From Candidatus Fraserbacteria bacterium (GTDB taxonomy: Bacteria; Bipolaricaulota; Bipolaricaulia; RBG-16-55-9): 18,192 nt of DNA. The notes under the pieces were generated by a model that searched no databases, was not told the origin of the DNA, and saw only the letters and a program-made list of their open reading frames with translations. The stretch spans positions 1 to 18,192 of the forward strand of contig JBBIPG010000047.1 of assembly GCA_037442925.1 (NCBI GenBank), given 5' to 3'. Each line of letters opens with the position of its first letter. The first letter of the stretch is position 1. This document shows, in pieces, positions 7,282 through 18,128 of the stretch. The position numbers and the translations under genes were made by a program.

Positions 7282-8364
7282 TCACAGTTTCTCGATGCCC
7301 TCAAAGCCTAGCTTCACCGGCGTCTCTCGACCGAAGATCTTGACCATCACGGTCACTTCTTCCTTCTCCTTGTCGATCTCCACGATCTCGCCGGTGAAGT
7401 CCGCAAACGGACCTTCCACGATCTCCACGACCTCACCGAGGTCGAAGTCGACCTCGATCACCGGCTGCTCGCGCTGGGCAGGAGCGGGAGTCTCCAGGAA
7501 GCCTGCCTTGCGCTTGACGACTTTCATATCATCCTCAGGAAGCGGCAGCGGCGGATCCCCCACAAAGCGAGCCTTAAGATCGCTCACCAGATCCAGAATC
7601 TCCTCGCTGATCTCCATCTTCCCGAAGACATAGCCCGGGAAGAGGCGGCGCTTCTCGATCCGCTGCACGGTGATCACCCGTTTGTCTTTGTACTCCTTGA
7701 TCTTGACCATTCCCGACGCTTTCGAATCCATGCGATCTTCCTTCTCGATGAGATCGCCCTTCGTAAGCTTCATGCCCTCTTTGAGCTTGACCAAGTAGCG
7801 CTCGGGGACCTCTTCGATCACCTGTTCGCCATCGGGTTTCTCGAGCACGATCCTGCGGATGCGCGAGCGGTCGACAATCTTCCCTTTCACTTTCGTGAAG
7901 AATTTCGGGTCACGATCCGTCGTGAGCGGCACATTGGCCGGGACTTTCTCACCCACCCGAATGTCACGCCGAATTCGCTTGTCCTCGGGGATATTGTAGA
8001 CCTCCTCGTTGCGATTGGTGAGTTCAATGATCACCCGCTGCAGCGCCTCCATGCTCACGACCTTCGCATCGTATTCGAGGGTCCGTTCCGACTTGACCGC
8101 GAGCAGCTCTCCTCGGTTGATCCGCTGGTTCGACTCCACCTTAAGCTCATAGTCGTACGGGACGCGATACTCTGCCGCGCGCCCCCGTCGGCTCTTGGAA
8201 GTGATCACTTCCTCAACGGGAGCCAAGAAGTAGCTCTCCTCGCCGTTGATGTGGAAGCACTCGAAGCGTTTCGCCAAGCCCATCTCGCGGACCCTCTTGT
8301 CCAGCTCTTCCTTGACTTTGAGCTCTGAGCCGGCATAGGTCTGAATCGCATACCATTTCTTCAT
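7282..8364 (-). CDS. nusG: Transcription termination/antitermination factor NusG with large internal insertion (Thermotoga-type, 360 aa)
   Basis: N-terminal KWYAIQTYAGSELKVK, LFPGYVF, KOW domain GEVVEIVEGPFADFTG...IFGRETPV; ~180 extra residues before LFPGY; follows secE. Confidence 0.97.
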   Translation of the reverse strand: MKKWYAIQTYAGSELKVKEELDKRVREMGLAKRFECFHINGEESYFLAPVEEVITSKSRRGRAAEYRVPYDYELKVESNQRINRGELLAVKSERTLEYDAKVVSMEALQRVIIELTNRNEEVYNIPEDKRIRRDIRVGEKVPANVPLTTDRDPKFFTKVKGKIVDRSRIRRIVLEKPDGEQVIEEVPERYLVKLKEGMKLTKGDLIEKEDRMDSKASGMVKIKEYKDKRVITVQRIEKRRLFPGYVFGKMEISEEILDLVSDLKARFVGDPPLPLPEDDMKVVKRKAGFLETPAPAQREQPVIEVDFDLGEVVEIVEGPFADFTGEIVEIDKEKEEVTVMVKIFGRETPVKLGFEGIEKL

Positions 8365-8579: not shown

Positions 8580-8655
8580 TGGCAGGCCCGGGAGGAGTTG
8601 AACCCCCAACCTGCGGATTTGGAGTCCGCTGCTCTGCCAATTGAGCTACGGGCCT
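8580..8655 (-). tRNA. tRNA-Trp(CCA), 3' CCA encoded
   Basis: AGGCCCG acceptor, anticodon arm GCGGA-CTCCAAA-TCCGC, GGTTCAACTCC T-arm; canonical position between rpmG and secE. Confidence 0.97.
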
Positions 8656-8828: not shown

Positions 8829-10028
8829 CTACTCGATGATCTTGGTGACCACGCCCGCGCCCACGGTCCGTCCCCCCTCGCGGATGGCGAAGCGCAACCC
8901 CTCTTCCATGGCGATGTGCTTGATGAGTTCGCCCGTGATGCGCACGTTGTCTCCGGGCATCACCATCTCGACGCCGTTGGGCAGCGTGATGTTGCCCGTG
9001 ACGTCGGTCGTGCGGAAGTAGAACTGGGGCTTATATCCCGTAAAGAACGGGGTGTGACGGCCGCCCTCGTCCTTGGAGAGCACATAGACCTCGGCTTCGA
9101 ACTTCGTGTGGGGCGTGATCGTGTTGGGAGCTGCCAAGACCATGCCGCGCTCGACGTCCTCTTTCTCAATGCCTCGAAGCAGCACACCGACGTTGTCACC
9201 GGCGATGACGTTATCCAGGGTCTTATTGAACATCTCCAAGCTGGTCGCCACCGTCTTTACCGGCTTCTCGCGCAGCCCGACCAGTTCGACCTCTTGACCG
9301 GGCAGAAGCTGGCCACGATCGACTTTGCCGGTCACGACCGTACCACGGCCCTTGATTGAGAAGACGTCTTCGATCGGCATGAGGAACGGTTTATCGGTCT
9401 CTCGCTTCGGCTCGGGGATGAACTCATCTAAAGCGTTGAGCAGATCCATGATGGGCTGGGTGGCCTTGGGATCATTCGGGTTTTCCAGCGCCCTCTTGGC
9501 CGAACCGCGGATGACCGGGATCTTGTCGCCGGGGAACTGGTACTTCTTTAGTAGGTCACGCACTTCGATCTCTACTAGATCTACCAACTCGGGGTCATCA
9601 ACCAGGTCAACCTTATTGAGGAAGACGACCAGCGAGGGCACGTTCACTTGGCGGGCCAAAAGAACGTGTTCGCGCGTCTGGGGCATGGGGCCGTCGGCCG
9701 CATCCACGACCAGAATGGCCCCGTCCATCTGAGCTGCCCCGGTAATCATGTTCTTGACGTAATCGACGTGTCCCGGGCAGTCAATATGAGCGTAGTGTCG
9801 CTTTTCGGTCTGATACTCCACGTGAGCCACAGCCACCGTCAAGATCTTGGACGCATCGCGGACCACACCGCCTTTGGCAATATCCGCGTACGACTTCTCC
9901 TTGGCCATGCCCTTCTGGGCAAGAACCTTCGTCATGGCCGAAGTGAGCGTCGTCTTGCCGTGGTCGATGTGGCCGATCGTCCCGACGTTGACGTGCGGCT
10001 TCGTGCGCTCGAACTTCGCTTTCGCCAT
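8829..10028 (-). CDS. tuf: Elongation factor Tu (variant switch I)
   Basis: [45 protein letters not shown]. Confidence 0.99.
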
Positions 10029-10112
10029 GTAAACCTCCTCGATATTCCTCTAGAATGAAATGATGGCGACCGGGCAAATCGCACCCCTCTGCTCCGGACA
10101 GTGGGCTTCGGG

Positions 10113-10184
10113 AGCCCGCGGCCGGGATTGAACCGGCGGCCTTTTCCTTACCAAGGAAACGCTCTACCACTGAGCTACACGGGC
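10113..10184 (-). tRNA. tRNA-Thr(GGT)
   Basis: GCCCGTG acceptor, anticodon arm TTTCC-TTGGTAA-GGAAA, GGTTCAATCC; discriminator followed by CCC (no full CCA). Confidence 0.96.
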
Positions 10185-10195
10185 GCGATCTCGTT

Positions 10196-10224
10196 ATTAT
10201 AGCGGAAAGTCCCCCCTACAACAA
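10196..10224 (-). promoter_or_regulatory. sigma70-type promoter for tRNA-Thr(GGT)-tuf and downstream genes
   Basis: TTGTTG-17 nt-TATAAT, perfect -10, 11 nt upstream of the tRNA. Confidence 0.7.
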
Positions 10225-10229
10225 GCCGG

Positions 10230-10311
10230 TGGAGGGGGAGGGATTCGAACCCCCGTAGGCTGCGCCACCTGGTTTACAGCCAGGCCCGGTTGGCCGCTTC
10301 GGTACCCCTCC
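10230..10311 (-). tRNA. tRNA-Tyr(GTA)
   Basis: GGAGGGG acceptor, anticodon arm CCTGG-CTGTAAA-CCAGG, long variable arm, GGTTCGAATCC; discriminator followed by CCG. Confidence 0.96.
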
Positions 10312-10352
10312 AGATCCGATCTGTTCGTGTTCTTCCGTGAGCTCCACTGGGG

Positions 10353-10425
10353 AGCCGGCGGAGGGACTCGAACCCACGACCCGCGGTTTACAAAACCGCT
10401 GCTCTACCGACTGAGCTACGCCGGC
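10353..10425 (-). tRNA. tRNA-Thr(TGT)
   Basis: GCCGGCG acceptor, anticodon arm GCGGT-TTTGTAA-ACCGC, GGTTCGAGTCC; discriminator followed by CCC. Confidence 0.96.
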
Positions 10426-10439
10426 CCATCGCCCAGGGC

Positions 10440-10468
10440 ATGCTAACGCGCGGAGGGGCTACTGTCAA
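10440..10468 (-). promoter_or_regulatory. sigma70-type promoter for the tRNA cluster
   Basis: TTGACA-17 nt-TAGCAT followed by a GC-rich discriminator, 14 nt upstream of tRNA-Thr(TGT). Confidence 0.8.
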
Positions 10469-10515
10469 CTCCTCCCGACCCGTACGTGCGATAGAGGGCG
10501 CGTCTTCCGGATGGG

Positions 10516-10695
10516 TTACTTGCCCGGTCCTTTGTCTTTCTTCTCCTCGCGCTCCACATACTCGAGGATCGCTTGAACGACGAGGTAGTTGACCGAGCGA
10601 TCTCGCTTCTTGGCCAGTTTGGTCAGTCGCTCAATCGGCTGATACTGCCGCTTCTCTTGGGGCACGTAAATGCTCAACTTATCCATGGGCACCAT
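10516..10695 (-). CDS. Small ribbon-helix-helix (CopG/Arc/MetJ-like) DNA-binding protein, 59 aa
   Basis: Hand translation MVPMDKLSIYVPQEKRQYQPIERLTKLAKKRDRSVNYLVVQAILEYVEREEKKDKGPGK; very strong SD GGAGGAGGTGA; beta strand (KLSIYVP) then helix-RS-helix pattern. Confidence 0.85.
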   Translation of the reverse strand: MVPMDKLSIYVPQEKRQYQPIERLTKLAKKRDRSVNYLVVQAILEYVEREEKKDKGPGK

Positions 10696-10762
10696 GCTTC
10701 ACCTCCTCCGGGGTGTGGGCGTCCGCCTTACCCCATTCAGCTTGGTGTTATGGGTTGGTGTC

Positions 10763-10791
10763 ACTGTAGCAGAATCATCGATCCAAATCAA
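10763..10791 (-). promoter_or_regulatory. Putative promoter of the RHH gene
   Basis: TTGATT-17 nt-TACAGT with extended -10 TG; overlaps aroQ stop codon. Confidence 0.55.
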
Positions 10792-11222
10792 GTTGCTTCC
10801 GTGAGGAGTCTTTCGATTGCTACTAAATAGCTTTGATATCCTTTTCCGCTCACTTGTGCGAGGCAAACCGGCGCGATGACCGAGACCCTTCGAAACTCCT
10901 CACGCCGATGGATGTCTGATAGGTGCACTTCCACGGTGGGCAGTCCCACGGCAGCGATCGCATCCCGAATGGCATAGCTGTAATGGGTAAAGGCTGCCGG
11001 GTTGATCACCACGCCCTCGGCCCAATGGCGCTCATTCTGCAACACATCGATGATCGCCCCCTCGTGGTTGGATTGAAAGAACTTCACCTCCACTCCCTGC
11101 TGATCGGCGAATCGACGGATGCCTGCGTTGAGTTCCTCTAGCGTCTGAGAGCCATAGATCTGCGGCTCCCTCTCACCGAGCAAGTTCAGATTGGGACCAT
11201 GAATCACGAGGATCCTCTTCAT
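10788..11222 (-). CDS. aroQ: Type II 3-dehydroquinate dehydratase
   Basis: HGPNLNLLGEREPQIYG, QSNHEG, INPAAFTHYS, VEVHLS, REEFR. Confidence 0.98.
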   Translation of the reverse strand: MKRILVIHGPNLNLLGEREPQIYGSQTLEELNAGIRRFADQQGVEVKFFQSNHEGAIIDVLQNERHWAEGVVINPAAFTHYSYAIRDAIAAVGLPTVEVHLSDIHRREEFRRVSVIAPVCLAQVSGKGYQSYLVAIERLLTEAT

Positions 11223-11244
11223 GGAGTTTCAATTCCAAGAACGG

Positions 11245-12336
11245 TCATGAGAATACACGAAGATCTTCCAGTGCTTCCCGAATCTCGATTTCTTCCACTC
11301 CCGCGAGAGTAGCTTGGCCTATGCCCCGGAGCAATACGACGCGGATTTGCTTCTGCCGGGCCTTCTTGTCCCTGTAAATATAACCGAGAAATGACTCTTT
11401 TTCAAGATCAGCTGGAAGCGAGGGTCTGGGAAGCCGACCCAGCAGCGCTGCCATTCGCTCGAAGTCCTCTCGAGCTAGCCATCCTCTCTTGTGAGATAGA
11501 TGCCCTTCGGCCAGCATGCCCCAGGCCACCGCTTCCCCATGGAGGAAGTGCTGGTACTTCGTGGCCGCCTCCAAGGCATGGCCGAGCGTATGCCCAAAAT
11601 TCAGAAGAGCCCGCTGCCCCGCTTCTCGTTCATCTGCGGAAACGATCTGGCTCTTGATCCCCACGGAGCGCTCGATCAGAGGTGTCAGTCTCTCAAGGTC
11701 TTCCAGAGAACTCTCTTCTCTCAAGTGGGCTTCCAGTTGCGCGAAGAGTTCTCCATCGCAGCTGCAGCCATACTTGATGATTTCTGCCAGACCCGCCCAG
11801 CGCTCGCGTTCGGGCAGCGTCCGGAGAAATTGAGGATCGATCAGCACGAACTGGGGCTGATGAAAGGCTCCAATCAGGTTCTTCCCCAGGCGATGATTGA
11901 TCCCCGTCTTACCACCGATGGCCGCGTCCACTTGGGCCAGAAGCGTCGTGGGAACTTGAACCCAGCGTACACCTCGCAGGTACGTCGCGGCGACGAAACC
12001 GGCCAGATCGCCCACCACTCCGCCCCCCAGCGCCACAAGAGTCGTATCTCTATCGAATCCTACCCAGATGAGACGCGTGTACAGCTTATCCAGCCATTCT
12101 AAAGATTTGCTCGATTCGCCAGGGGGAACAGGGATCAACTGAGCATCCACTCCAACATGCTTTAGCTGGGCGAGCGTCGAAGCACCGTACAGTTTTTCGA
12201 CGGTCTTATCTGTAATGATCGCCGCACGTCTTCCCAACTCGTGCTGGGAATACAGCTGTCCCAACTTCTCTGAGGCCCCGGCTTCAACATAGATGGGGTA
12301 ACTCCGCTCGTCTAACGCCACGTGGATCGTTCTCAT
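11245..12336 (-). CDS. aroB: 3-dehydroquinate synthase
   Basis: GGGVVGDLAGF, PTTLLAQVDAAIGGKTG, LNFGHTLGHALE, HGEAV. Confidence 0.98.
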   Translation of the reverse strand: MRTIHVALDERSYPIYVEAGASEKLGQLYSQHELGRRAAIITDKTVEKLYGASTLAQLKHVGVDAQLIPVPPGESSKSLEWLDKLYTRLIWVGFDRDTTLVALGGGVVGDLAGFVAATYLRGVRWVQVPTTLLAQVDAAIGGKTGINHRLGKNLIGAFHQPQFVLIDPQFLRTLPERERWAGLAEIIKYGCSCDGELFAQLEAHLREESSLEDLERLTPLIERSVGIKSQIVSADEREAGQRALLNFGHTLGHALEAATKYQHFLHGEAVAWGMLAEGHLSHKRGWLAREDFERMAALLGRLPRPSLPADLEKESFLGYIYRDKKARQKQIRVVLLRGIGQATLAGVEEIEIREALEDLRVFS

Positions 12337-12869
12337 TTGAGTCCCGCATCTCGTAGTTTCTGTAAGATCTGCTCCAAGGCTTCTTCAGGAGTACGATCAT
12401 TCTCGATCACACAGTCTGCCTGTAGATAGTAGGGCTCGCGAGCCGCCAACAGTTTTTCAAGCAAGATCAGCCTCTCGTTGCGGTCTCTTCCCATTAGAAG
12501 AGGACGATATGGATGCTCGGGAAGGCGAGTTAGGATTGTTTCCGGCTGCACTTTCAGATAGATCGAGTATCCCCCAGCCTGGATCAGTTGGCGATTGATC
12601 GGGCGCAGTACCGCTCCCCCTCCGAGGGAGATGACCCAGCCCGTCTGCTGACTGAGCTCGAGAAGGGTTGTGGTCTCGAGATCGCGAAAATGGGCCTCCC
12701 CGTGCTCGCGAAAGATCCCCGCAATGGAGCAATTTGCACGTGCTTCGATCCATTCATCTGTGTCCGCGAACGGAGACCCCAGCTCCTCTGCCAGCAGCCT
12801 CCCCAACGTGGTCTTGCCGGAACCCATCATGCCCATGAGGTAGATGTTGGTTGCTGCTGCTTGTCGCAT
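12333..12869 (-). CDS. aroK: Shikimate kinase
   Basis: P-loop GMMGSGKTT, DTD, GEAHFRDLE, GGGAV, RPLL; ATGA overlap with aroB. Confidence 0.97.
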   Translation of the reverse strand: MRQAAATNIYLMGMMGSGKTTLGRLLAEELGSPFADTDEWIEARANCSIAGIFREHGEAHFRDLETTTLLELSQQTGWVISLGGGAVLRPINRQLIQAGGYSIYLKVQPETILTRLPEHPYRPLLMGRDRNERLILLEKLLAAREPYYLQADCVIENDRTPEEALEQILQKLRDAGLK

Positions 12870-12871
12870 GG

Positions 12872-13735
12872 CTATCCGAGGTGGGGTACCTCATTGGCTG
12901 GCGCTGGGGGAGCTACAGGTGAACCGGCACGTAGAGATGTCCTTAGTTCGCGGGCAAATTCCCGGAGTTGTTCCGGGGAGATCCCTGCAGCTATTCTCTC
13001 AGCTAGGGCATTCCCTACAATCGCGCCCTGTGCGCCCGCCCGAATGAATGTAGCAAACGACGCGAGGCCTGAACCCTCAGACGCTGCCACAAGGGGCAGT
13101 TCGCTAGGGACGAGTGCTCGAACGCGCTGCAGCGAGGTCTCCAGTTGGGTACCGCGATCCATCCCATACGGCAAGAGGAAGCACAAAAAACCTGTCGTCT
13201 CTGCTGCAATGGCCTTGAGACGCTCTTCTGACGTCTCAGGCGTGGCCAGAAAGATCGTGTCGACGCGATATCTGCGCGCGTGAGAGAGGAAAGAGGCCGC
13301 CTCTTCGACCGGCAGATCCAACACGAGTACCCCGTCGATACCCGTCTCCAAGCCGCGCTTGAGAAAGGCCTCCTCTCCCATGGCGAGAACGGGGTTGTAA
13401 TAGGTCACGAGCACGATGGGTATGGAAGTCTCCCGACGGAGTTCCTTCACCAACTCGAAGATGGCAAGAGGAGTGGTGCCGGCGTTGAGTGCACGCTGGT
13501 TCGCGTCTTGAAGGACCGGCCCATCGGTTATCGGGTCCGAGAAGGGGATGCTCAGTTCTACTGCATCCATCCCTGCGGCGATGAGCGCTCGGATGTACTC
13601 GCGGCTCCGCGCAAGATCGGGGGCGCCTACCACCAGATGTCCAACGAGTGCCCCTTCCCCTCGGACACTCAGTTCCTTAAAGCAGGTTTGAATGCGACTG
13701 ATGGTGTTCGCTGATTCTCCCAAGGTCTTTATCAC
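12872..13735 (-). CDS. trpA: Tryptophan synthase alpha subunit homolog with degenerate substrate/phosphate-binding motifs
   Basis: ELSIPFSDPITDGPVLQ, TYYNP, DLPVEE; start uncertain (GTG 13735, or TTG 13723 with SD GGGGTGA). Confidence 0.88.
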   Translation of the reverse strand: MIKTLGESANTISRIQTCFKELSVRGEGALVGHLVVGAPDLARSREYIRALIAAGMDAVELSIPFSDPITDGPVLQDANQRALNAGTTPLAIFELVKELRRETSIPIVLVTYYNPVLAMGEEAFLKRGLETGIDGVLVLDLPVEEAASFLSHARRYRVDTIFLATPETSEERLKAIAAETTGFLCFLLPYGMDRGTQLETSLQRVRALVPSELPLVAASEGSGLASFATFIRAGAQGAIVGNALAERIAAGISPEQLREFARELRTSLRAGSPVAPPAPANEVPHLG

Positions 13736-14984
13736 CCCGGCCGGAAAGCGTGACGACGATCAGCCCGTCGCGTCCGAGGAGCTTCGCTCGCTCGACGGCC
13801 GCGTAGACGGCATGTGCACACTCAAGCGCAGGACTGATCCCCTCCAGCTCTGAGAGTTGCCGAAAACCTTCGAGGGCCTGTTCATCCGTGACTGTGATGT
13901 ACTCCACTCGGTGCATCTCATGACAGAACGCAAGCTCTGGTCCGACAGCAGGGTACGCAAGTCCTGTGGCCAGGCTGTGCGCGTCTTTCGTTTGTCCCCA
14001 TTCGTCCTGCAACACATAGCTCTTCGCGCCATGGAACACCCCGACTCGGCCGTGACCGACCGCGCCGGCGTGACCGTTGGCGGAACCTCCCGCTTCGACT
14101 CCCAGAAGCTTCACCCACTCGTCGTCGATGAAAGAATGAAACGTGCCTACCGCGTTACTTCCTCCACCGACGCAGGCAATGATGAGATCCGGCAGGCGTC
14201 GCTCTTTTCGCAAGATCTGCCCCTTGAGTTCTTCGCCGATGATCCGCTGAAAGTCGCGCACCATAAGAGGATAGGGATGTGGACCTATGGCAGAGCTAAT
14301 CACATAGTGCGTCGTCCGCGCATTCGTCGCCCAGTCCCTAAAAGCCTCGTTGATGGCATCTTTCACAGTTGCTGTGCCTGTCTTTACAGAGTGCACTTTC
14401 GCGCCCAGAGACTGCATGCGAAGGACGTTTAGCTTCTGGTGTTGCCTGTCTACTTCCCCCATGTAGATCTCTGTCTGTAGTCCCAGGGCAGCCCCTGCCA
14501 TGGCCGTGGCGACCCCATGGTCACCTGCTCCGGTTTCGGCAATGAGCCGAATCTTCCCTGTGCGTTTGGCGAGCAGTGCTTGACCGATGGCATTGTTGAG
14601 CGTATGGGATCCCCCATGAACGAGATCCTCACGCTTGAGGTAGATGCGGGCTCCGCCACACGAGTCTGTCAGTCGGCGGGCGAAGTAGAGCGCAGTGGGC
14701 CGACCGCAGTACTCCGTCTGGAAACGTCGCAGCTCCTGCTGGAACGCGAGATCCTCGCGGGCCGCGTGATAAGCCTTTTCGAGTTCTTGAAGCGCAGGCA
14801 TGAAGATCTCTGGAACATACCGGCCGCCGAAGGGACCGAAGCGACCGTCTTGCGGCCAGCTGCTCAGCTTTTTCGGCTTTTCTTGAATCTGTGTCCGTGC
14901 GGATCGATCAGTCATGGCCGAGTCCATCTTAAGGGAAGAGGAGAAGCGAGAGCAAGCGAGGGACTCTGGAGTCGCGGGGTTCAT
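13677..14984 (-). CDS. trpB: Tryptophan synthase beta subunit homolog lacking the PLP Schiff-base lysine
   Basis: GRFGPFGGRYVPE, YLKREDL, AETGAG, GPHPYP, CVGGGSNA, LSGRGDKD; HK motif reads HT. True start may be a downstream ATG (~14927 or ~14915). Confidence 0.92.
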   Translation of the reverse strand: MNPATPESLACSRFSSSLKMDSAMTDRSARTQIQEKPKKLSSWPQDGRFGPFGGRYVPEIFMPALQELEKAYHAAREDLAFQQELRRFQTEYCGRPTALYFARRLTDSCGGARIYLKREDLVHGGSHTLNNAIGQALLAKRTGKIRLIAETGAGDHGVATAMAGAALGLQTEIYMGEVDRQHQKLNVLRMQSLGAKVHSVKTGTATVKDAINEAFRDWATNARTTHYVISSAIGPHPYPLMVRDFQRIIGEELKGQILRKERRLPDLIIACVGGGSNAVGTFHSFIDDEWVKLLGVEAGGSANGHAGAVGHGRVGVFHGAKSYVLQDEWGQTKDAHSLATGLAYPAVGPELAFCHEMHRVEYITVTDEQALEGFRQLSELEGISPALECAHAVYAAVERAKLLGRDGLIVVTLSGRGDKDLGRISEHHQSHSNLL

Positions 14985-14987
14985 TTG

Positions 14988-15146
14988 TCAATGCACTGCT
15001 ATCCACCCGATGGTGGCCAGGGTGAGAATCCTCCCGTAGACGCTGACGAGCCAGGATGCACAGCCTAGCAAGAAGAGCAACGCTTCCAGATTCACAAAGA
15101 CGAAGAGCAAAGCGTTCACAGTTTTTCTGCTGCCATGCAAGCCCAT
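14988..15146 (-). CDS. Putative small membrane protein (52 aa) upstream of trpB
   Basis: Hand translation MGLHGSRKTVNALLFVFVNLEALLFLLGCASWLVSVYGRILTLATIGWIAVH; stop 3 nt before trpB ORF ATG; no SD, but lies just below an extended -10. Confidence 0.45.
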   Translation of the reverse strand: MGLHGSRKTVNALLFVFVNLEALLFLLGCASWLVSVYGRILTLATIGWIAVH

Positions 15147-15154
15147 TACCGTCA

Positions 15155-15163
15155 AGAATAACA
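15155..15163 (-). promoter_or_regulatory. Putative extended -10 promoter (TGnTATTCT) for the trp/aro operon
   Basis: Minus-strand TGTTATTCT, 8 nt upstream of ATG 15146; no clear -35. Confidence 0.4.
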
Positions 15164-15171
15164 AGAAACCT

Positions 15172-15215
15172 GGTGGAAAGAGAATGGCTAGAGGGTGGAA
15201 GGCTGGTGGAAACTG
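15172..15215. repeat. Four phased 11-bp direct repeats (core GGTGGAA)
   Basis: ggtggaaagag|aatggctagag|ggtggaaggct|ggtggaaactg. Confidence 0.7.
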
Positions 15216-15297
15216 CTGCTAGCTTGCGTCACTGAGATCGTATCGCGCTCAAGTCTGCATGGGAAGCCCGTCCTGTAAGACTGCCGAGCCCGACGTT

Positions 15298-16233
15298 CTA
15301 GCGCCTGTCGTCTCCAGGTTGTGACCGAATGGGGGCTGTTTCGGGTTTAAAGCGCCAGAGGAGCAGAAGGCCAATGGCGGCGAAGTACACAACTACCGCC
15401 AGTAGGATCTCGATAAGGCCCGGAGATGAGGGGGCAAGCGGCCATTGGGCCTCCAGCAGTTGTGATTTGTGGTTGATCTTCAGAACTCCATTCGGGAACT
15501 TCACCTGTGAGGGGGCGGAGAGGATGTTGGCTAAGGTGAAATTGACCGCGAAGTGCACTCCAATGGGTAACCAGAGCGTACCACTCTTCAAATAGCCAAT
15601 CCCCATCAAGATACCCGCGAGCACGGCGTTGACAATGGGCATTAAATCCGGCGCTGAAGTCGATGCTGTTGTTACGACTCCTCCAGCATGTACAAGACCG
15701 AAGAGAATTGAACTGATAAGAACAGCAAGCCAGCGTCCCAATCCCGTCATTAAGGTCTGCAATAGATAACCTCGGAAGATGACCTCTTCTAGAGCCGCAG
15801 CCCCTAACCAGGCCAACCCATAGATCACGAAAATCCCTAGTGCAAACACGGGATTAACTCCGAGAATTCGTATTACTGCGGTGCTTCCTGAGGTGCTTTT
15901 AGTAGGTAAGACGAACAGGATGAGTGTAATTGCAGTCCCCAATAAGAAGCCGCCAGCGAATGCCAGCACACTCCTGCGGTTAAGTTCTAATCCCAGTGAG
16001 CTCCAGGGTCGTTTGTCGACATAGCGAATGAGAACGAAGATCACAACGAGAGTCGGAATCAACAGGGAAGCTTGAGCGCCTATTACCTCTAAGAATGAAT
16101 AGGCTGTGAAACCGAAAACAAGACGATAGAGTATCCTCCAGAGAACAAATGACATTCCCCAAAGGAATACGAATAAGACAAGCCGCCAGCCTGCTCTTAT
16201 CCGATTCTCTCTGCTTACAAAGACACTTCTCAC
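15298..16233 (-). CDS. CPBP family (CAAX protease/Abi, Rce1-like) intramembrane glutamic endopeptidase
   Basis: Motifs EEVIFRGY, SSILFGLVH, YLKSGTLWLPIGVHFAVN; N-terminal RAGWR; multi-TM. Confidence 0.93.
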   Translation of the reverse strand: MRSVFVSRENRIRAGWRLVLFVFLWGMSFVLWRILYRLVFGFTAYSFLEVIGAQASLLIPTLVVIFVLIRYVDKRPWSSLGLELNRRSVLAFAGGFLLGTAITLILFVLPTKSTSGSTAVIRILGVNPVFALGIFVIYGLAWLGAAALEEVIFRGYLLQTLMTGLGRWLAVLISSILFGLVHAGGVVTTASTSAPDLMPIVNAVLAGILMGIGYLKSGTLWLPIGVHFAVNFTLANILSAPSQVKFPNGVLKINHKSQLLEAQWPLAPSSPGLIEILLAVVVYFAAIGLLLLWRFKPETAPIRSQPGDDRR

Positions 16234-16382
16234 AGGTTCTTAGGAAGTATCACTCTCCTTCGTTTACCATTACAGACAGGTGAATCCATCATTAACAGGA
16301 TCGGGATAGTCTACGCAGGGATCAGGTGGTACTTCATAACAGTTGGCGCATTCTGAATGGATCAAGAGTTCGGCAACAAGGT

Positions 16383-16712
16383 TCAAGGCATATTGGGGCG
16401 CACTTCTTGAAGATTCTCCTCTACTTCCTTTCGCTTCTGGTACCAGAACCTCAAGACGGGGATTTCGATTAGATTGAGCACGGCAAAGAGAGCAAACATT
16501 AGGGCGATGCCACGGTGGCCACTGGAGAAGGCGAGAAGAGACGTAAGCACAACGGCAAACCAGCTAGGCACGAAGGCGAGTGGCTTCCAGTAGAACAGGG
16601 CAACCCCGTAGAATGCCTCAAGAGCCAGACCCACCAGGAGTTGAGAGATTGCGCCGCCAGGGGAACTCAGAAAAGCTTGAATCGCTTCCAACGCCTCAAA
16701 CACCGTTGCCAT
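16383..16712 (-). CDS. Hypothetical small membrane protein (~3 TM), candidate immunity protein
   Basis: 109 aa, SD GAGG, hydrophobic segments with charged C-tail, 12 nt after upstream gene. Confidence 0.75.
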   Translation of the reverse strand: MATVFEALEAIQAFLSSPGGAISQLLVGLALEAFYGVALFYWKPLAFVPSWFAVVLTSLLAFSSGHRGIALMFALFAVLNLIEIPVLRFWYQKRKEVEENLQEVRPNMP

Positions 16713-16724
16713 AAGATATCCTCG

Positions 16725-17033
16725 CTAGAGTTCCGCTCGGCGTCCGATCCGGTATTTGCTCAAAAAAGCATATCCCTGTATCACCAAGAGAGCTGTCAAG
16801 AGTCCCACAATGAAATAGTGGCCAGCATTGGCAGCAAGAACGATCCATGTAATGGCCCAGAGGATGTGGAGGATGATGAGTGGGAATAGCTTTACTTTCC
16901 GTTCCGCATGGGTTCTGAATCGTTTCCAATCTTGGAAGATCAGTAGGAAGCCTGATATCATCAACGAGATGCCTCCTATTAGGTAAAGCCAGCTTCCATA
17001 GTGCTGAACCAGATTGTTTATGAAATCCATCAA
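16725..17033 (-). CDS. Hypothetical small membrane protein (~3 TM), candidate immunity protein
   Basis: SD AGGAGGT at 17041-17047 positions the start at TTG 17033 or ATG 17030 (not GTG 17042); three hydrophobic helices, basic loop and tail. Confidence 0.8.
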   Translation of the reverse strand: MMDFINNLVQHYGSWLYLIGGISLMISGFLLIFQDWKRFRTHAERKVKLFPLIILHILWAITWIVLAANAGHYFIVGLLTALLVIQGYAFLSKYRIGRRAEL

Positions 17034-17047
17034 TTGCGACACCTCCT

Positions 17048-17956
17048 TTAAGGTTCAGGGCATGTGGGAGAACAGCCCGATGGGGGAGGTGGGTCTTCAT
17101 CAGTGGTGGTGCCGCTGCTGCTTCCTCCACCTGCACAACTGGAACAGGCACTGGCTGTGAGAACTGATCCGATTGCGAATGGAACAAGTACAGTCACGCA
17201 CCCGATTATGCCAAAGGCGCAACGAAGGAGATTCCACTTGCCGTACTCAAGCCCCGCTACGCCCAGTGCACAAGCTGAACAGGGATCAAGGAAATGTGCC
17301 TTAACCAAACCTTGCGAAGAAGCGCCGTTGGTAACAGATGGGAGGGTAGACGCTGTCTGAAATGCGAATTCCGTGTTTTTCTCTACAAGCCGGAGCAGAT
17401 TGTCGCCAAGAGTCCAGAGCGGATTGCCCTTGTCTTTCTGGAGCCCCGTAGCAAGCTGCTGAGAGGCTCTGCTCTCATCGCTATAGACGAGAGGGGCAAT
17501 AAGTATATTCTGTCCCTTCCAATGAATGCTGAGGCTGTGGGCACGGAATGCTGTGCGGTATCTCGATCTCACCTTTCCGTAATTTCGAACGATCTCATCG
17601 TGGACCTGTGACCTCTTTTCTGGATCAAGAAGGTCTACTAAATCAGAGGGACTAATGCCTATCGACTTCACGGCTTCGGAGATTCGCTGCAGTTGACTGG
17701 GAGCTATCCTAGAGCGGATCGTAAGCAAATCATCCTGTGAGCTTGCATAGGAGATCCATCTCCCTTGGCCAGCAAGGATTCGATTATATATGCCGCGTCC
17801 GCCTTGGAGCGAATTGAAGATGATATCGAACCCATACATCTGGTCTCGCCAGGAGACAGCTCTTACTGTGAGCTTCTCGTCTCCCGCCAGGAGGACTGCT
17901 TGTTGCTCACCAAAGAACAAACCATCCCCTCGACCCGGTAGTGCTAACAACACCAT
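17048..17956 (-). CDS. Hypothetical protein with C-terminal Cys-rich hydrophobic domain (bacteriocin/halocin-C8-like precursor body)
   Basis: 302-aa ORF; all 8 Cys in last ~80 aa (CxxC...C...C...CxxC...CxxxC); probably the frameshifted continuation of 17907..18128. Confidence 0.75.
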   Translation of the reverse strand: MVLLALPGRGDGLFFGEQQAVLLAGDEKLTVRAVSWRDQMYGFDIIFNSLQGGRGIYNRILAGQGRWISYASSQDDLLTIRSRIAPSQLQRISEAVKSIGISPSDLVDLLDPEKRSQVHDEIVRNYGKVRSRYRTAFRAHSLSIHWKGQNILIAPLVYSDESRASQQLATGLQKDKGNPLWTLGDNLLRLVEKNTEFAFQTASTLPSVTNGASSQGLVKAHFLDPCSACALGVAGLEYGKWNLLRCAFGIIGCVTVLVPFAIGSVLTASACSSCAGGGSSSGTTTDEDPPPPSGCSPTCPEP

Positions 17957-18128
17957 TCACTCCCTGTCTTGTTACATCCCGGTCGAAACCCAGGAACTGC
18001 GTACACCCCGTCAGCCCACCCAGCGCCATCAACCCGGTCCCGACTCCCATGGCCCGAAGCACCTTTCTACGTGTGAGTCCTCCCCGACCTTCCTTGACCT
18101 CTTCGTATGTCTCTTTGCCACAGCACAT
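17907..18128 (-). CDS. Tat signal peptide + lipobox-containing N-terminal ORF
   Basis: SD AAGGAGGT 7 nt before ATG; LTRRKVL twin-arginine motif, h-region, LTGC lipobox; ends ~30 aa after the Cys. Confidence 0.75.
   Translation of the reverse strand: MCCGKETYEEVKEGRGGLTRRKVLRAMGVGTGLMALGGLTGCTQFLGFDRDVTRQGVNGVVSTTGSRGWFVLW

What the first reader, a model, noticed from the sequence alone, without database searches (positions are those of the whole stretch)
10788..15215. Intact but catalytically degenerate tryptophan synthase pair heading a shikimate operon: candidate pseudoenzyme sensor or neofunctionalised complex
Seen: trpB-trpA-aroK-aroB-aroQ are tightly packed (overlaps or gaps of at most 22 nt). 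The aro genes keep the hallmark motifs I checked, while both Trp synthase subunits carry several active-site substitutions yet no stops or frameshifts over ~2.1 kb. No trpE/G/D/F/C is nearby. Inference: purifying selection on the fold but not the chemistry, e.g. a Trp/indole/serine-binding regulator or scaffold for AroK/AroB/AroQ, or an enzyme acting on a different substrate. Early pseudogenisation is the alternative.
Basis: partly seen in the sequence, partly recalled or inferred. Interest (0 to 1): 0.85.

Follow-up and report, generated by a model that had tools for sequence, protein, structure and literature searches.

The report
Lysine-less spare tryptophan synthase pair
A second copy of the two tryptophan synthase genes sits in front of three shikimate-pathway genes and has lost its catalytic lysine and other key residues, while a normal copy lies elsewhere in the genome; the beta subunit likely still does some non-enzymatic job, and the alpha subunit is likely just decaying.

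Summary
On the minus strand, trpB'-trpA'-aroK-aroB-aroQ (14984..10788) are packed as described. Both Trp synthase subunits are intact ORFs with active-site losses. TrpB' has K87T, Q114D, R141H and D305A. TrpA' has no loop 6 or Thr183, and its phosphate-site glycines and Ser235 are replaced.

In this order, whose relatives' records are labelled Candidatus Bipolaricaulota/Acetothermia, trpF-trpB-trpA-aroK-aroB is the ancestral layout. The pair is therefore a redundant resident copy, not a new assembly with aro genes.

TrpB' belongs to a lysine-less subclade of four lineages, down to 79% identity. Relative to AroB it evolves as slowly as working TrpB, but with shifted constraints. This points to a retained, lysine-independent role of unknown nature. 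TrpA' evolves nearly neutrally here (omega about 0.6-0.9 against a close relative) and has lost its ancestral ATG, which points to decay.

Lysine-less TrpB arose several times in this order. In one genus it persists with TrpA at dN/dS of about 0.06-0.1, although trpE and trpC were not found and, in six of its nine lysine-less species, neither was aroB.

The closest analogue is the plant TSB-like pseudoenzyme. This scan flagged a similar pair before on other DNA (e1-7258355).

The parts
13677..14984 (-). trpB' : TrpB1-family gene without the catalytic lysine. The longest ORF is 435 aa; the form on record starts at ATG 14915 (412 aa).
   Evidence: TIGR00263 541 bits; P0241.
14601..14603 (-). Codon ACG (Thr) at the position of the PLP Schiff-base lysine (Salmonella beta-Lys87, P. 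furiosus Lys82).
   Evidence: (alignment to 5dvz_A).
13956..13958 (-). Codon GCG (Ala) at beta-Asp305. Its salt-bridge partner Arg141 is His (CAC, 14439-14441) and Gln114 is Asp (GAC, 14520-14522).
   Evidence: Roles of these residues: PMC9512447, passages.
12872..13735 (-). trpA' : TrpA-family gene with loop 6 shortened and the phosphate site replaced. The ancestral ATG start (MSRIQ...) is ATC at 13700-13702. In-frame GTG 13735 and TTG 13723 lie upstream.
12869..12874 (-). trpA' stop TAG, 2 nt, then the aroK ATG: a junction that fits translational coupling (inferred).
12333..12869 (-). aroK, shikimate kinase; single copy in the genome.
11245..12336 (-). aroB, 3-dehydroquinate synthase; single copy in the genome.
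   Evidence: (TIGR01357 384.9 bits).
10788..11222 (-). aroQ, type II 3-dehydroquinate dehydratase; single copy in the genome.
   Evidence: (TIGR01088 193.4 bits).
14985..15297 (-). Non-coding stretch upstream of trpB'. No RNA family and no promoter-like site was found in it (the three promoter-like sites in 10000-16400 lie elsewhere and are no more than chance gives). In canonical relatives trpF stands here; in this window it is a CAAX-protease gene (15298-16233).

Best explanation
The window holds a redundant second trpB-trpA pair, standing where this bacterial order ancestrally keeps trpBA in front of aroK-aroB-aroQ, that is predicted to be dead as tryptophan synthase. Its beta subunit likely survives as a lysine-independent, non-catalytic protein, and its alpha subunit is likely a decaying passenger.

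Shown:
- The substitutions themselves.
- A complete canonical trp operon on contig C31.
- The ancestral synteny trpF-trpB-trpA-aroK-aroB in relatives.
- A lysine-less TrpB' subclade of four lineages.
- Rate and dN/dS figures for TrpB', TrpA' and the relatives' lysine-less pairs.

Inferred from what is known of Salmonella tryptophan synthase:
- Without Lys87 there is no internal aldimine and no acid-base catalyst, so no beta-replacement.
- Without Gln114 and the Arg141-Asp305 bridge the closed state is not stabilised.
- Without loop 6, Thr183 and the phosphate-site glycines, TrpA' should not bind or cleave indole-3-glycerol phosphate.

Inferred from the evolutionary pattern:
- Once a second complete operon made the resident copy dispensable, catalysis decayed.
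- TrpB' settled into a new, still constrained state. Its role is most likely ligand or partner binding, possibly PLP with an amino acid held as a stable external aldimine, as in the laboratory K87T mutant.
- TrpA' drifts. Its frame is still open because the drift is young, and probably also because aroK starts 2 nt after its stop.

What TrpB' actually does is not known.
For: 1. Redundancy. Searches of the window's own genome find one trpE, trpD, trpC and trpF, plus a second trpB (574.9 bits) and trpA (283.5 bits), all in a row on C31. That TrpB deviates at 2 of 180 conserved columns (P0081).

2. Ancestral place. trpF-trpB-trpA-aroK(-aroB) is seen with canonical TrpB in 8 relatives of four families (G003, G007, G008, G009, G011, G014, G024, G027). 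In the tree the window's TrpB' sits inside its own family's clade, sister to G006's copy (SH-aLRT 91, quick tree).

3. A stable lysine-less state. The window (P0241), P0001 (95%), P0242 (89%) and P0243 (79%) all have HGGSHTLNN and GAGDHG. They share 14-15 of the window's 17 deviations at conserved columns. Their sister P0002 (80%) is fully canonical.

4. TrpB' is still constrained. The ratio of TrpB' to AroB protein divergence is 0.74 (window vs contig 25916) and 0.66 (contig 4730 vs contig 25916). Ten canonical genome pairs give a median of 0.72 (0.63-0.79). Against G001 the C-terminal 112 codons give dN/dS 0.12-0.14.

5. The constraints have shifted. Within the subclade, substitution at formerly conserved columns runs at 0.37-0.48 of the rate at variable columns, against 0.05-0.15 in canonical pairs of like divergence.

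6. TrpA' is relaxed.
- The TrpA'/AroB divergence ratio is 2.5, against a canonical 1.05 (0.95-1.25).
- The conserved/variable rate ratio is 0.62-0.68.
- Against the X4 relative, whose reconstructed codons match P0123, codons 21-175 show 20 amino-acid differences. That is at least 21 nonsynonymous changes out of 29-33 differences in all, over 343 nonsynonymous and 122 synonymous sites: omega 0.93 by script, about 0.6 if all 33 are counted.
- 13 of those 20 differences are window-derived.
- The ancestral ATG is ATC.

7. Independent recurrence. Lysine-less TrpB occurs in 16 of 41 genomes searched. The change needs 6 events on the tree, at least 3 of them forced by well-supported branches. In genus g10, nine lysine-less species differ from their lysine-bearing kin by only four fixed residues. 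Their dN/dS is 0.063 for TrpB (36 pairs, 0.043-0.093) and 0.095 for TrpA. trpC and trpE were found in 1 of 14 g10 genomes, and aroB was not found in 6 of the 9.

8. The open frame is not chance for trpB'. In substitution-only neutral simulation, 0.2% of runs keep the frame open at 0.2 changes per site.
Against: - No function was shown. No RNA run holds the stretch, so expression is untested.
- The closest TrpB' pair (window vs contig 4730) has a TrpB'/AroB ratio of 1.20, above the canonical range. Deviations at conserved columns keep accumulating in the subclade (17, 20, 23, 32). P0243 has also lost Asn of GGGSN and the Ser of SGRGDKD. This erosion argues against a role that needs PLP.
- K-retaining cousins in the same family are equally eroded (P0007 26 deviations, P0013 29, P0015 21), and one pair is near-neutral (conserved/variable ratio 0.75). 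Plain decay clearly happens in this family.
- dS is saturated in most comparisons (0.8-2.5).
- The rate argument rests on three TrpB' pairs and on protein distances only.
- The window's TrpB' is mosaic against P0001: 19 differences in the first 176 residues and one (Q406E) in the rest. This blurs branch estimates.
- Substitutions are not significantly depleted at the predicted alpha-beta interface (p of 0.1 or more in all 12 tests: 8 for TrpA', 4 for TrpB').
Confidence: 0.55

Rival explanations
1. Both genes are simply young pseudogenes with no protein-level function. The frames are open by chance, and because stops would disturb expression of the single-copy aroK-aroB-aroQ downstream through polarity or loss of termination-reinitiation at TAG-cc-ATG. 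Residual conservation would reflect selection against a misfolding translated product.
For: - TrpA' is near-neutral (omega about 0.6-0.9) and has lost its ATG.
- In neutral simulation trpA' stays open in 37% of runs at 0.05 changes per site and in 14% at 0.1.
- aroK starts 2 nt after the trpA' stop, with no close Shine-Dalgarno-like run.
- aroK, aroB and aroQ are single copy.
- Erosion in the TrpB' subclade goes on (17 to 32 deviations), and K-retaining cousins decay too.
Against: - Over the deep lysine-less pairs TrpB' evolves no faster, relative to AroB, than working TrpB (0.66-0.74 against 0.63-0.79).
- Its frame is open in four lineages down to 79% identity, while neutral simulation leaves 0.2% of frames open at 0.2 changes per site, before counting indels.
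- In relatives, lysine-less trpBA pairs with no aro genes downstream (L059, L061, L066) are under dN/dS 0.04-0.14. Polarity cannot be the general reason such pairs are kept in this order.
Confidence: 0.27
2. TrpB' works like the plant TSB-like pseudoenzyme. It binds an active TrpA (here the canonical one from contig C31, since TrpA' is degenerate), activates it and, being unable to consume indole, lets free indole escape for signalling or secondary metabolism.
For: - The plant precedent: a non-catalytic TSB paralogue activates TSA and releases indole (PMC12727527, abstract and passages).
- The genome makes IGP (trpC on C31) and has a canonical TrpA.
- A preprint on a cultured member of the phylum lists trpA-aroK-aroQ inside a region its authors tie to a terpenoid alkaloid-like compound (10.1101/2025.11.21.689855, one figure-legend passage). 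This is a lead only.
Against: - The residues that stabilise the closed, alpha-activating state are all replaced (Q114D, R141H, D305A). Salmonella mutants at Gln114, Arg141 and Asp305 are described as destabilising that state (PMC9512447, passages). The plant protein instead has a change (D to E) held to lock the active state.
- In the related genera g10 and g13, lysine-less TrpB with an intact TrpA persists where trpC and trpE were not found, so IGP cleavage cannot be the shared role.
- Binding of TrpB' to the canonical TrpA was not tested.
Confidence: 0.08
3. The pair is neofunctionalised: a Trp/indole/serine-binding regulator or scaffold for AroK/AroB/AroQ, or an enzyme with new, lysine-independent chemistry on another substrate.
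For: - Tight packing with aroK-aroB-aroQ.
- TrpB' keeps Glu109, His86, the GGGSN loop and the SGRGDKD motif.
- Position 87 is Thr, Ser or Ala in 15 of 16 lysine-less copies in the order. That would leave room for a PLP-amino-acid external aldimine like those seen in the K87T mutant structures (PMC9512447 passage; PDB 2trs, 2tsy, 2tys and 1ubs listed).
- The structure model places TrpA' on TrpB' (score 0.91, best of 3 controls 0.00; the mark was reached by 116 of 157 solved complexes and 2 of 215 mismatched pairs; runs agree in at least 96% of contacts; partner pLDDT at least 84). With tryptophan synthase complexes solved, this pass may be from likeness.
Against: - The aro linkage is inherited from canonical trpBA and is absent from 6 of 9 lysine-less g10 loci.
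- TrpA' is near-neutral.
- Three of the four subclade members have Glu109 replaced by Asp, and one has lost further PLP-site residues.
- No new lysine or other candidate base appears among the fixed changes.
Confidence: 0.1

Closest known systems
Plant TSB-like pseudoenzyme (non-catalytic paralogue of tryptophan synthase beta; PMC12727527; abstract and passages read)
   Same: A paralogue of TrpB that has lost residues essential for tryptophan formation, is kept alongside a working tryptophan synthase, and is a documented case of a TrpB-derived pseudoenzyme.
   Different: - The plant protein owes its behaviour to two changes, Glu109 to Ala and Asp305 to Glu. The passages read do not name a lysine change.
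- Here Lys87 itself is lost, together with Gln114, Arg141 and Asp305 (to Ala), so the closed-state lock is removed rather than fixed.
- The plant protein was shown to activate TSA and release indole; nothing was shown here.
- This one is bacterial and comes with its own degenerate TrpA'.
Laboratory beta-K87T mutant of Salmonella tryptophan synthase (PDB 1ubs, 2trs, 2tsy, 2tys; review PMC9512447, passages)
   Same: The same residue change at the same position. The mutant folds, assembles with the alpha subunit and holds amino acids as external aldimines in a closed alpha-beta state.
   Different: It is an engineered single change in an otherwise canonical enzyme. The window's protein carries 16 further deviations at conserved columns, including Q114D, R141H and D305A. 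That the mutant is nearly inactive and only slowly forms aldimines is my recollection of the older literature, which was not read here.
Canonical TrpB1 / TrpA (TIGR00263 / TIGR00262), e.g. the copy on contig C31 of the same genome
   Same: Same families by profile score, same fold (the TrpA' model matches solved TrpA chains with TM 0.83-0.88), same gene order, and 62% / 50% identity to the C31 copies.
   Different: Catalytic and allosteric residues are replaced, as listed above.
trpBA kept without the rest of the pathway for indole salvage, as in genital Chlamydia trachomatis (recalled, not read here)
   Same: trpBA persists in genomes that lack trpE-D-C. Three g10 species (G015, G025, G026) keep Lys87 in that situation and could work this way.
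   Different: Salvage needs Lys87. The window's copy and 15 others in the order lack it, and the window's genome has the whole pathway anyway.
TrpB2 / TrpB-like PLP enzymes (TIGR01415, NF009057)
   Same: Second TrpB-type genes in a genome.
   Different: TrpB' scores 153.5 bits against a cut-off of 518.85 on TIGR01415, so it is not a TrpB2.

Membership tests
Tryptophan synthase beta subunit, TrpB1 (TIGR00263) | Profile score above the curated cut-off | tested here: met
   541 bits against 392.45. Best solved relatives are TrpB chains, E 1e-148.
Tryptophan synthase beta subunit, TrpB1 (TIGR00263) | PLP Schiff-base / acid-base lysine (Salmonella Lys87) | tested here: not met
   Thr, codon ACG at 14601-14603. 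Thr in all 4 members of the subclade.
Tryptophan synthase beta subunit, TrpB1 (TIGR00263) | Glu109 (activates indole) | tested here: met
   GAA at 14535-14537, but Asp in the 3 other subclade members.
Tryptophan synthase beta subunit, TrpB1 (TIGR00263) | Closed-state switch: Gln114 and the Arg141-Asp305 salt bridge | tested here: not met
   Asp, His and Ala respectively. Roles from PMC9512447 passages.
Tryptophan synthase beta subunit, TrpB1 (TIGR00263) | PLP phosphate loop GGGSN and the Ser of SGRGDKD | tested here: met
   Both present. The assignment of these motifs to PLP binding is recalled.
Tryptophan synthase beta subunit, TrpB1 (TIGR00263) | Catalyses indole + serine to tryptophan | not testable with these tools
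   Needs an enzyme assay or complementation.
Tryptophan synthase alpha subunit, TrpA (TIGR00262) | Profile score above the cut-off and a TIM-barrel fold | tested here: met
   196.4 bits against 102.35. Model pLDDT 90.8. Top fold matches are TrpA chains, TM 0.83-0.88.
Tryptophan synthase alpha subunit, TrpA (TIGR00262) | Catalytic Glu49 and Asp60 | tested here: met
   GAA 13556-13558 and GAT 13523-13525. Glu49 is kept in all three distinct sequences of the clade (window/P0121, P0122, P0123). Asp60 is kept in two of them and is Glu in P0122.
Tryptophan synthase alpha subunit, TrpA (TIGR00262) | Loop 6 with Thr183/Gly184 | tested here: not met
   5-residue deletion; YGITG is replaced by YGMDR.
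Tryptophan synthase alpha subunit, TrpA (TIGR00262) | Phosphate site (Gly211, Gly213, Gly234, Ser235) | tested here: not met
   GFG is SEG and GS is GN. The assignment of these residues to phosphate binding is recalled.
TrpB-derived pseudoenzyme (as plant TSB-like) | Loss of residues needed for tryptophan formation while a catalytic paralogue is present | tested here: met
TrpB-derived pseudoenzyme (as plant TSB-like) | Kept by purifying selection after the loss | tested here: inconclusive
   For: TrpB'/AroB rate 0.66-0.74 in two deep pairs, against a canonical 0.63-0.79. Against: 1.20 in the closest pair, continuing erosion, and no nucleotide data for those lineages.
TrpB-derived pseudoenzyme (as plant TSB-like) | Binds and activates TrpA so that indole is released | not testable with these tools
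   A model places TrpA' on TrpB' (0.91 against a best control of 0.00), but this may reflect likeness to solved complexes. Activation and indole release need assays.
TrpB2 (TIGR01415) | Profile score above the cut-off | tested here: not met
   153.5 bits against 518.85.

The most novel reading that the evidence does not exclude
Bacteria of this Bipolaricaulota order keep a lysine-less tryptophan synthase as a protein with a new, non-tryptophan-making job. The state arose several times. In one genus it is held at dN/dS of about 0.06 together with an intact TrpA, in genomes where no trpE, no trpC and often no aroB was found. The window's TrpB' is an eroded member of the same phenomenon. This would be the first bacterial TrpB pseudoenzyme. 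It may be a PLP-amino-acid (Ser/Trp) or indole sensor built from the classic allosteric alpha-beta machine.
Probability: 0.4. Interest if true: 0.8.

Novelty: new variant of a known kind. Interest (0 to 1): 0.58.

Why it matters
Tryptophan synthase is the textbook case of PLP catalysis, substrate channelling and allostery, and beta-Lys87 is its central residue. Natural, repeatedly evolved and selectively maintained lysine-less TrpB would show that this machine has a use apart from making tryptophan. The laboratory K87T mutant would then have a natural counterpart.

It also matters for annotation. These genes pass the curated trpB and trpA models, so automated metabolic reconstructions of Bipolaricaulota genomes would credit them with tryptophan synthase activity that they probably lack. 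In the g10 and g13 genomes this would mislead calls of tryptophan prototrophy or indole salvage.

For this window itself the lesson is more ordinary. A resident gene pair was made redundant by a second operon, and its two halves are now on different paths.

Tried and rejected
- TrpB' structure from a 5-row alignment gave an unusable model (mean pLDDT 37.4). It was not used, and the second structure job went to TrpA'.
- No RNA holder is listed among the public runs, so nothing can be said on expression.
- Rfam at gathering thresholds found only four tRNAs in the window and no leader, T-box or riboswitch upstream of trpB'. Promoter-like and terminator-like sites in 10000-16400 are at the level of shuffles (3 against 2.4; 6 against 5.5).
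- The metagenome scan with TrpB' returned 13 loci at 49-74% identity. None came from the closest lysine-less lineages, so it gave no nucleotide data for them.
- The strict DNA pattern for KRED..HGGxH[T/A/S]xNN in 185,579 species genomes found 13 contigs. All are loci already found among relatives. It misses AGY-Ser codons and variants with other flanks (G035a, G005b), so it is not a census.
- Test for fewer substitutions at the predicted alpha-beta interface: not significant in all 12 tests.
- Search for aroB in the five trpB-less relatives, to see whether trpBA can be deleted while aroKB stays: aroB was not found there either, so the question stays open.
- Relocated catalytic lysine: none among the four fixed differences in g10 or among the window's 17 deviations.
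- TrpB2 identity rejected.
- The complex prediction passed, but tryptophan synthase complexes are solved, so it shows likeness to them and not that this copy binds.
- Read laying was unreachable six times before the same request was answered.
- Literature: 'tryptophan synthase' + 'pseudoenzyme' (6 papers, none on bacterial proteins by the search listing). 'K87T' + 'tryptophan synthase' (4 papers). 'TrpB' + 'catalytic lysine' + 'paralog' (1 paper, unrelated). 'Bipolaricaulota' + 'tryptophan' (11 papers). 'Acetothermia' + 'tryptophan synthase' (1 paper). By listing or passages, none describes a natural lysine-less bacterial TrpB. Subscription journals are not covered, and bioRxiv supplements could not be seen.

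Full report
WHAT IS THERE

The minus strand of the window carries, from 14984 down to 10788, five tightly packed genes:
- a TrpB homologue, 13677-14984;
- a TrpA homologue, 12872-13735, overlapping it;
- aroK, 12333-12869, which starts 2 nt after the trpA' stop (TAG-cc-ATG);
- aroB, 11245-12336, overlapping aroK by 4 nt;
- aroQ, 10788-11222, after a 22-nt gap.

Downstream come tRNAs, tuf, secE, nusG, the rplK-rplA-rplJ-rplL genes and rpoB. Upstream lies a CAAX-type protease gene.

Both Trp synthase homologues pass the curated family models: TIGR00263 541 bits against 392.45, and TIGR00262 196.4 against 102.35. AroB and AroQ pass theirs. AroK is clear on Pfam but falls under the NCBIfam cut-offs.

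THE SUBSTITUTIONS ARE REAL

Aligned to the genome's other TrpB, and to P. furiosus TrpB for numbering, the Schiff-base lysine (Salmonella Lys87) is Thr (ACG). Gln114 is Asp, Arg141 is His and Asp305 is Ala. Glu109, GGGSN and SGRGDKD are kept.

TrpB' deviates at 17 of 180 columns that are at least 93% conserved in 106 lysine-bearing homologues; those homologues deviate at a median of 2.

TrpA' keeps Glu49 and Asp60. It lacks five residues of loop 6, including Thr183/Gly184. It has SEG for GFG and Asn for Ser235. It deviates at 20 of 82 conserved columns, against a median of 1.

According to the review PMC9512447 (passages):
- Lys87 forms the internal aldimine and acts as catalyst;
- Gln114 and the Arg141-Asp305 bridge stabilise the closed state;
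- Thr183 of loop 6 supports Asp60.

I therefore predict that neither subunit works as tryptophan synthase. This is an inference, not a measurement.

The genome (2.07 Mb, 86 contigs, 94% complete) has a full canonical operon on contig C31. It holds trpE, trpD, trpC, trpF, then trpB (574.9 bits) and trpA, each family matching once there. That TrpB deviates at 2 of 180 conserved columns. The two TrpBs are 62% identical and the two TrpAs 50%. aroK, aroB and aroQ are single copy.

SYNTENY IS ANCESTRAL

Relatives' records are labelled Candidatus Bipolaricaulota or Acetothermia; two are labelled uncultured Thermotogae and one Candidatus Fraserbacteria. In 8 relatives from four families, a lysine-bearing trpB stands in trpF-trpB-trpA-aroK(-aroB), once with trpC in front.

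In a quick tree of 35 TrpBs the window's copy lies in its own family's clade, sister to G006's copy. The place of the C31 copy is not resolved (four partial rows were left out).

So the window's pair is the resident copy in its old place, with trpF replaced by other DNA. The link to the aro genes says nothing about a new function.

THE WINDOW'S OWN LYSINE-LESS SUBCLADE

Four distinct proteins share Thr87 and Asp114: the window (P0241), P0001 (95%), P0242 (89%) and P0243 (79%). They also share 14-15 of the window's 17 deviations.
- Three of them also have Glu109 replaced by Asp.
- P0243 has further lost Asn of GGGSN and the Ser of SGRGDKD.
- Their sister P0002 (80%) is fully canonical.
- Deviations run 17, 20, 23 and 32.

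Normalised to AroB from the same contigs, TrpB' divergence is 0.74 and 0.66 in the two deep lysine-less pairs and 1.20 in the closest pair. Ten canonical pairs give 0.63-0.79.

Within the subclade, formerly conserved columns change at 0.37-0.48 of the rate of variable ones, against 0.05-0.15 in canonical pairs.

In sum, the overall rate is unchanged and the constraint has been redistributed. That fits a shifted function better than loss of function, but the basis is thin: three pairs, and proteins only.

Neutral substitution-only simulation leaves the trpB' frame open in 0.2% of runs at 0.2 changes per site.

TrpA' IS DIFFERENT

Its divergence relative to AroB is 2.5, against a canonical 0.95-1.25. 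Its conserved/variable rate ratio is 0.62-0.68.

Run X4 holds a relative whose contig covers the gene. Codons rebuilt from the listed differences match protein P0123. In codons 21-175:
- there are 20 amino-acid differences, needing at least 21 nonsynonymous changes;
- 29 differences are unlisted rows beyond 13208, and at most 4 more lie in end zones, so 8-12 are synonymous;
- over 343 nonsynonymous and 122 synonymous sites, omega is 0.93 by the script, or about 0.6 by my arithmetic with 33 differences.

Thirteen of the 20 differences are window-derived.

Three-point arithmetic gives the window's branch 13 changes in 155 residues, while AroB changed by about 2.4%.

The C-terminal third, from about codon 176, is far more diverged and includes a 100-nt block that does not align. 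This suggests replacement by a distant allele.

The ATG that starts nine homologues (MSRIQ...) is ATC here. In-frame GTG and TTG codons lie upstream, inside the end of trpB'.

At such small divergence an open frame is unremarkable: 37% of neutral runs keep it at 0.05 changes per site.

The older comparison with G001 gives dN/dS 0.27-0.34 at saturated dS.

TrpA' still models as a confident TIM barrel (pLDDT 90.8; TM 0.83-0.88 to solved TrpA). A complex model places it on TrpB':
- score 0.91, best of 3 controls 0.00;
- the mark was reached by 116 of 157 solved complexes and 2 of 215 mismatched pairs;
- the runs agree in at least 96% of contacts, and the partner's pLDDT is at least 84.

Since tryptophan synthase complexes are solved, this shows likeness to them only. 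Substitutions are not depleted at that interface.

THE WIDER PATTERN

Among 41 genomes searched, 37 have a TrpB match and 16 carry a lysine-less copy: Thr in 8, Ser in 5, Ala in 3... corrected count by row is given here as listed, namely Thr, Ser or Ala in 15 copies and Leu in one. The label needs 6 changes on the tree, at least 3 of them forced by well-supported branches.

Four genomes besides the window pair a degenerate copy with a canonical one. In G005, G017 and G035 the degenerate copy is lysine-less. In G006 it keeps Lys87 but is otherwise eroded.

In genus g10 (14 species):
- 13 have trpB, and 9 of these are lysine-less;
- the lysine-less ones differ from the 5 lysine-bearing kin compared (G015, G025, G026, G027 and G024) by only four fixed residues: K87 to T/S/A, F88L, I92L and K99R;
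- dN/dS is 0.063 for TrpB (36 pairs, range 0.043-0.093) and 0.095 for TrpA, like the lysine-bearing species (0.057 and 0.116) and lower than AroK;
- their TrpA keeps its catalytic residues;
- trpC and trpE were each found in 1 of the 14 genomes;
- aroB was not found in 6 of the 9 lysine-less species, whose completeness is 61-92%;
- in three loci examined, the pair is followed by a convergent ABC-F gene, not by aro genes.

In genus g13, three species have Ser87, Ala109 and a changed phosphate loop, with dN/dS 0.087 and 0.069.

Absence in incomplete genomes is 'not found', not proof. Even so, the pattern across a dozen genomes says that a lysine-less TrpB-TrpA pair is kept for something other than tryptophan synthesis. 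Operon polarity cannot explain it there.

COMPARISON WITH WHAT IS KNOWN

The nearest described case is the plant TSB-like pseudoenzyme, which lost Glu109 and changed Asp305 to Glu. It activates TSA so that indole escapes (PMC12727527, abstract and passages).

The window's TrpB' differs in three ways:
- it loses Lys87 itself;
- it dismantles the closed-state lock rather than fixing it;
- it is bacterial.

The g10 pairs cannot cleave IGP that their genomes apparently cannot make.

The laboratory K87T mutant, with solved structures listed, shows that such a protein folds, assembles and holds amino-acid aldimines in a closed state. This is the basis for my suggestion of a ligand-holding role.

My literature searches found no natural lysine-less bacterial TrpB in print.

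A preprint on a cultured member of the phylum lists trpA, aroK and aroQ within a region that its authors connect to a terpenoid alkaloid-like product (one legend passage). This is a lead, not evidence.

VERDICT

The pair is a redundant resident copy. TrpB' is probably a maintained pseudoenzyme of unknown role. TrpA' is probably on its way out. The aro context is inherited.

The window's case is a new bacterial variant of a kind so far described in plants. The stronger and more surprising evidence lies in the related g10 and g13 genomes.

Noticed in passing
Relatives' loci L059, L061, L066 (and L023, L031-L033, L035, L040); L041-L043 / L057, L058, L062: In genera g10 and g13, 'clean' lysine-less trpB plus an intact-looking trpA stand alone, or beside SIR2-guaA-glycosyltransferase genes and a convergent ABC-F gene. 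This is in genomes where trpE, trpC and often aroB were not found. dN/dS is 0.04-0.14.
   Followed up: partly
window 13677-14984 against P0001: The window's TrpB' is mosaic against a 95%-identical protein from another assembly: 19 differences in the first 176 residues and only one (Q406E) in the remaining 236. At several of these sites the window matches the canonical sister P0002. This suggests recombination within trpB'.
   Followed up: no
window about 12880-13210: The last third of trpA' is far more diverged from the X4 relative (28 differences in 80 nt, plus a 100-nt block that does not align) than the first two thirds (about 6%). It looks like allele replacement or a local burst of change.
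   Followed up: partly
window 14957-18002: In the X4 relative, a contig joins 14957 to 18002 with 1721 other letters in place of the window's 3044. The CAAX-protease gene and the two family-less ORFs upstream of trpB' are therefore variable content.
   Followed up: no
window 16383-17956: Three minus-strand ORFs (109, 163 and 302 aa, partly overlapping) have no Pfam match.
   Followed up: no
window 7282-8364: NusG is 360 aa and carries an inserted 'NusG additional domain' (PF18298) between its NGN and KOW parts.
   Followed up: no
window 8583-8655 and 10113-10425: Four tRNA genes: three in a row upstream of tuf and one between tuf and secE.
   Followed up: no
L048 (G005:C5): An orphan TrpB homologue with Leu at position 87, NGG for HGG and many other changes. 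No trpA lies beside it, and the genome also has a canonical trpD-trpC-trpB-trpA.
   Followed up: no
Proteins P0007 and P0017 (both with a longest contig of 31108): Judging by the shared contig length, one metagenome contig seems to carry two TrpBs: an eroded lysine-bearing one (26 deviations) and a Thr87 one (11 deviations).
   Followed up: no
L047, L046, L049, L050: A second type of trp operon, trpD-trpC-trpB-trpA, with HTGAHKINN and NLSGRGDKD motifs and no trpF between trpC and trpB in three of four. It forms its own well-supported TrpB clade and co-occurs with degenerate resident copies in G005, G006, G017 and G035. This fits displacement of the resident genes by an acquired operon.
   Followed up: partly
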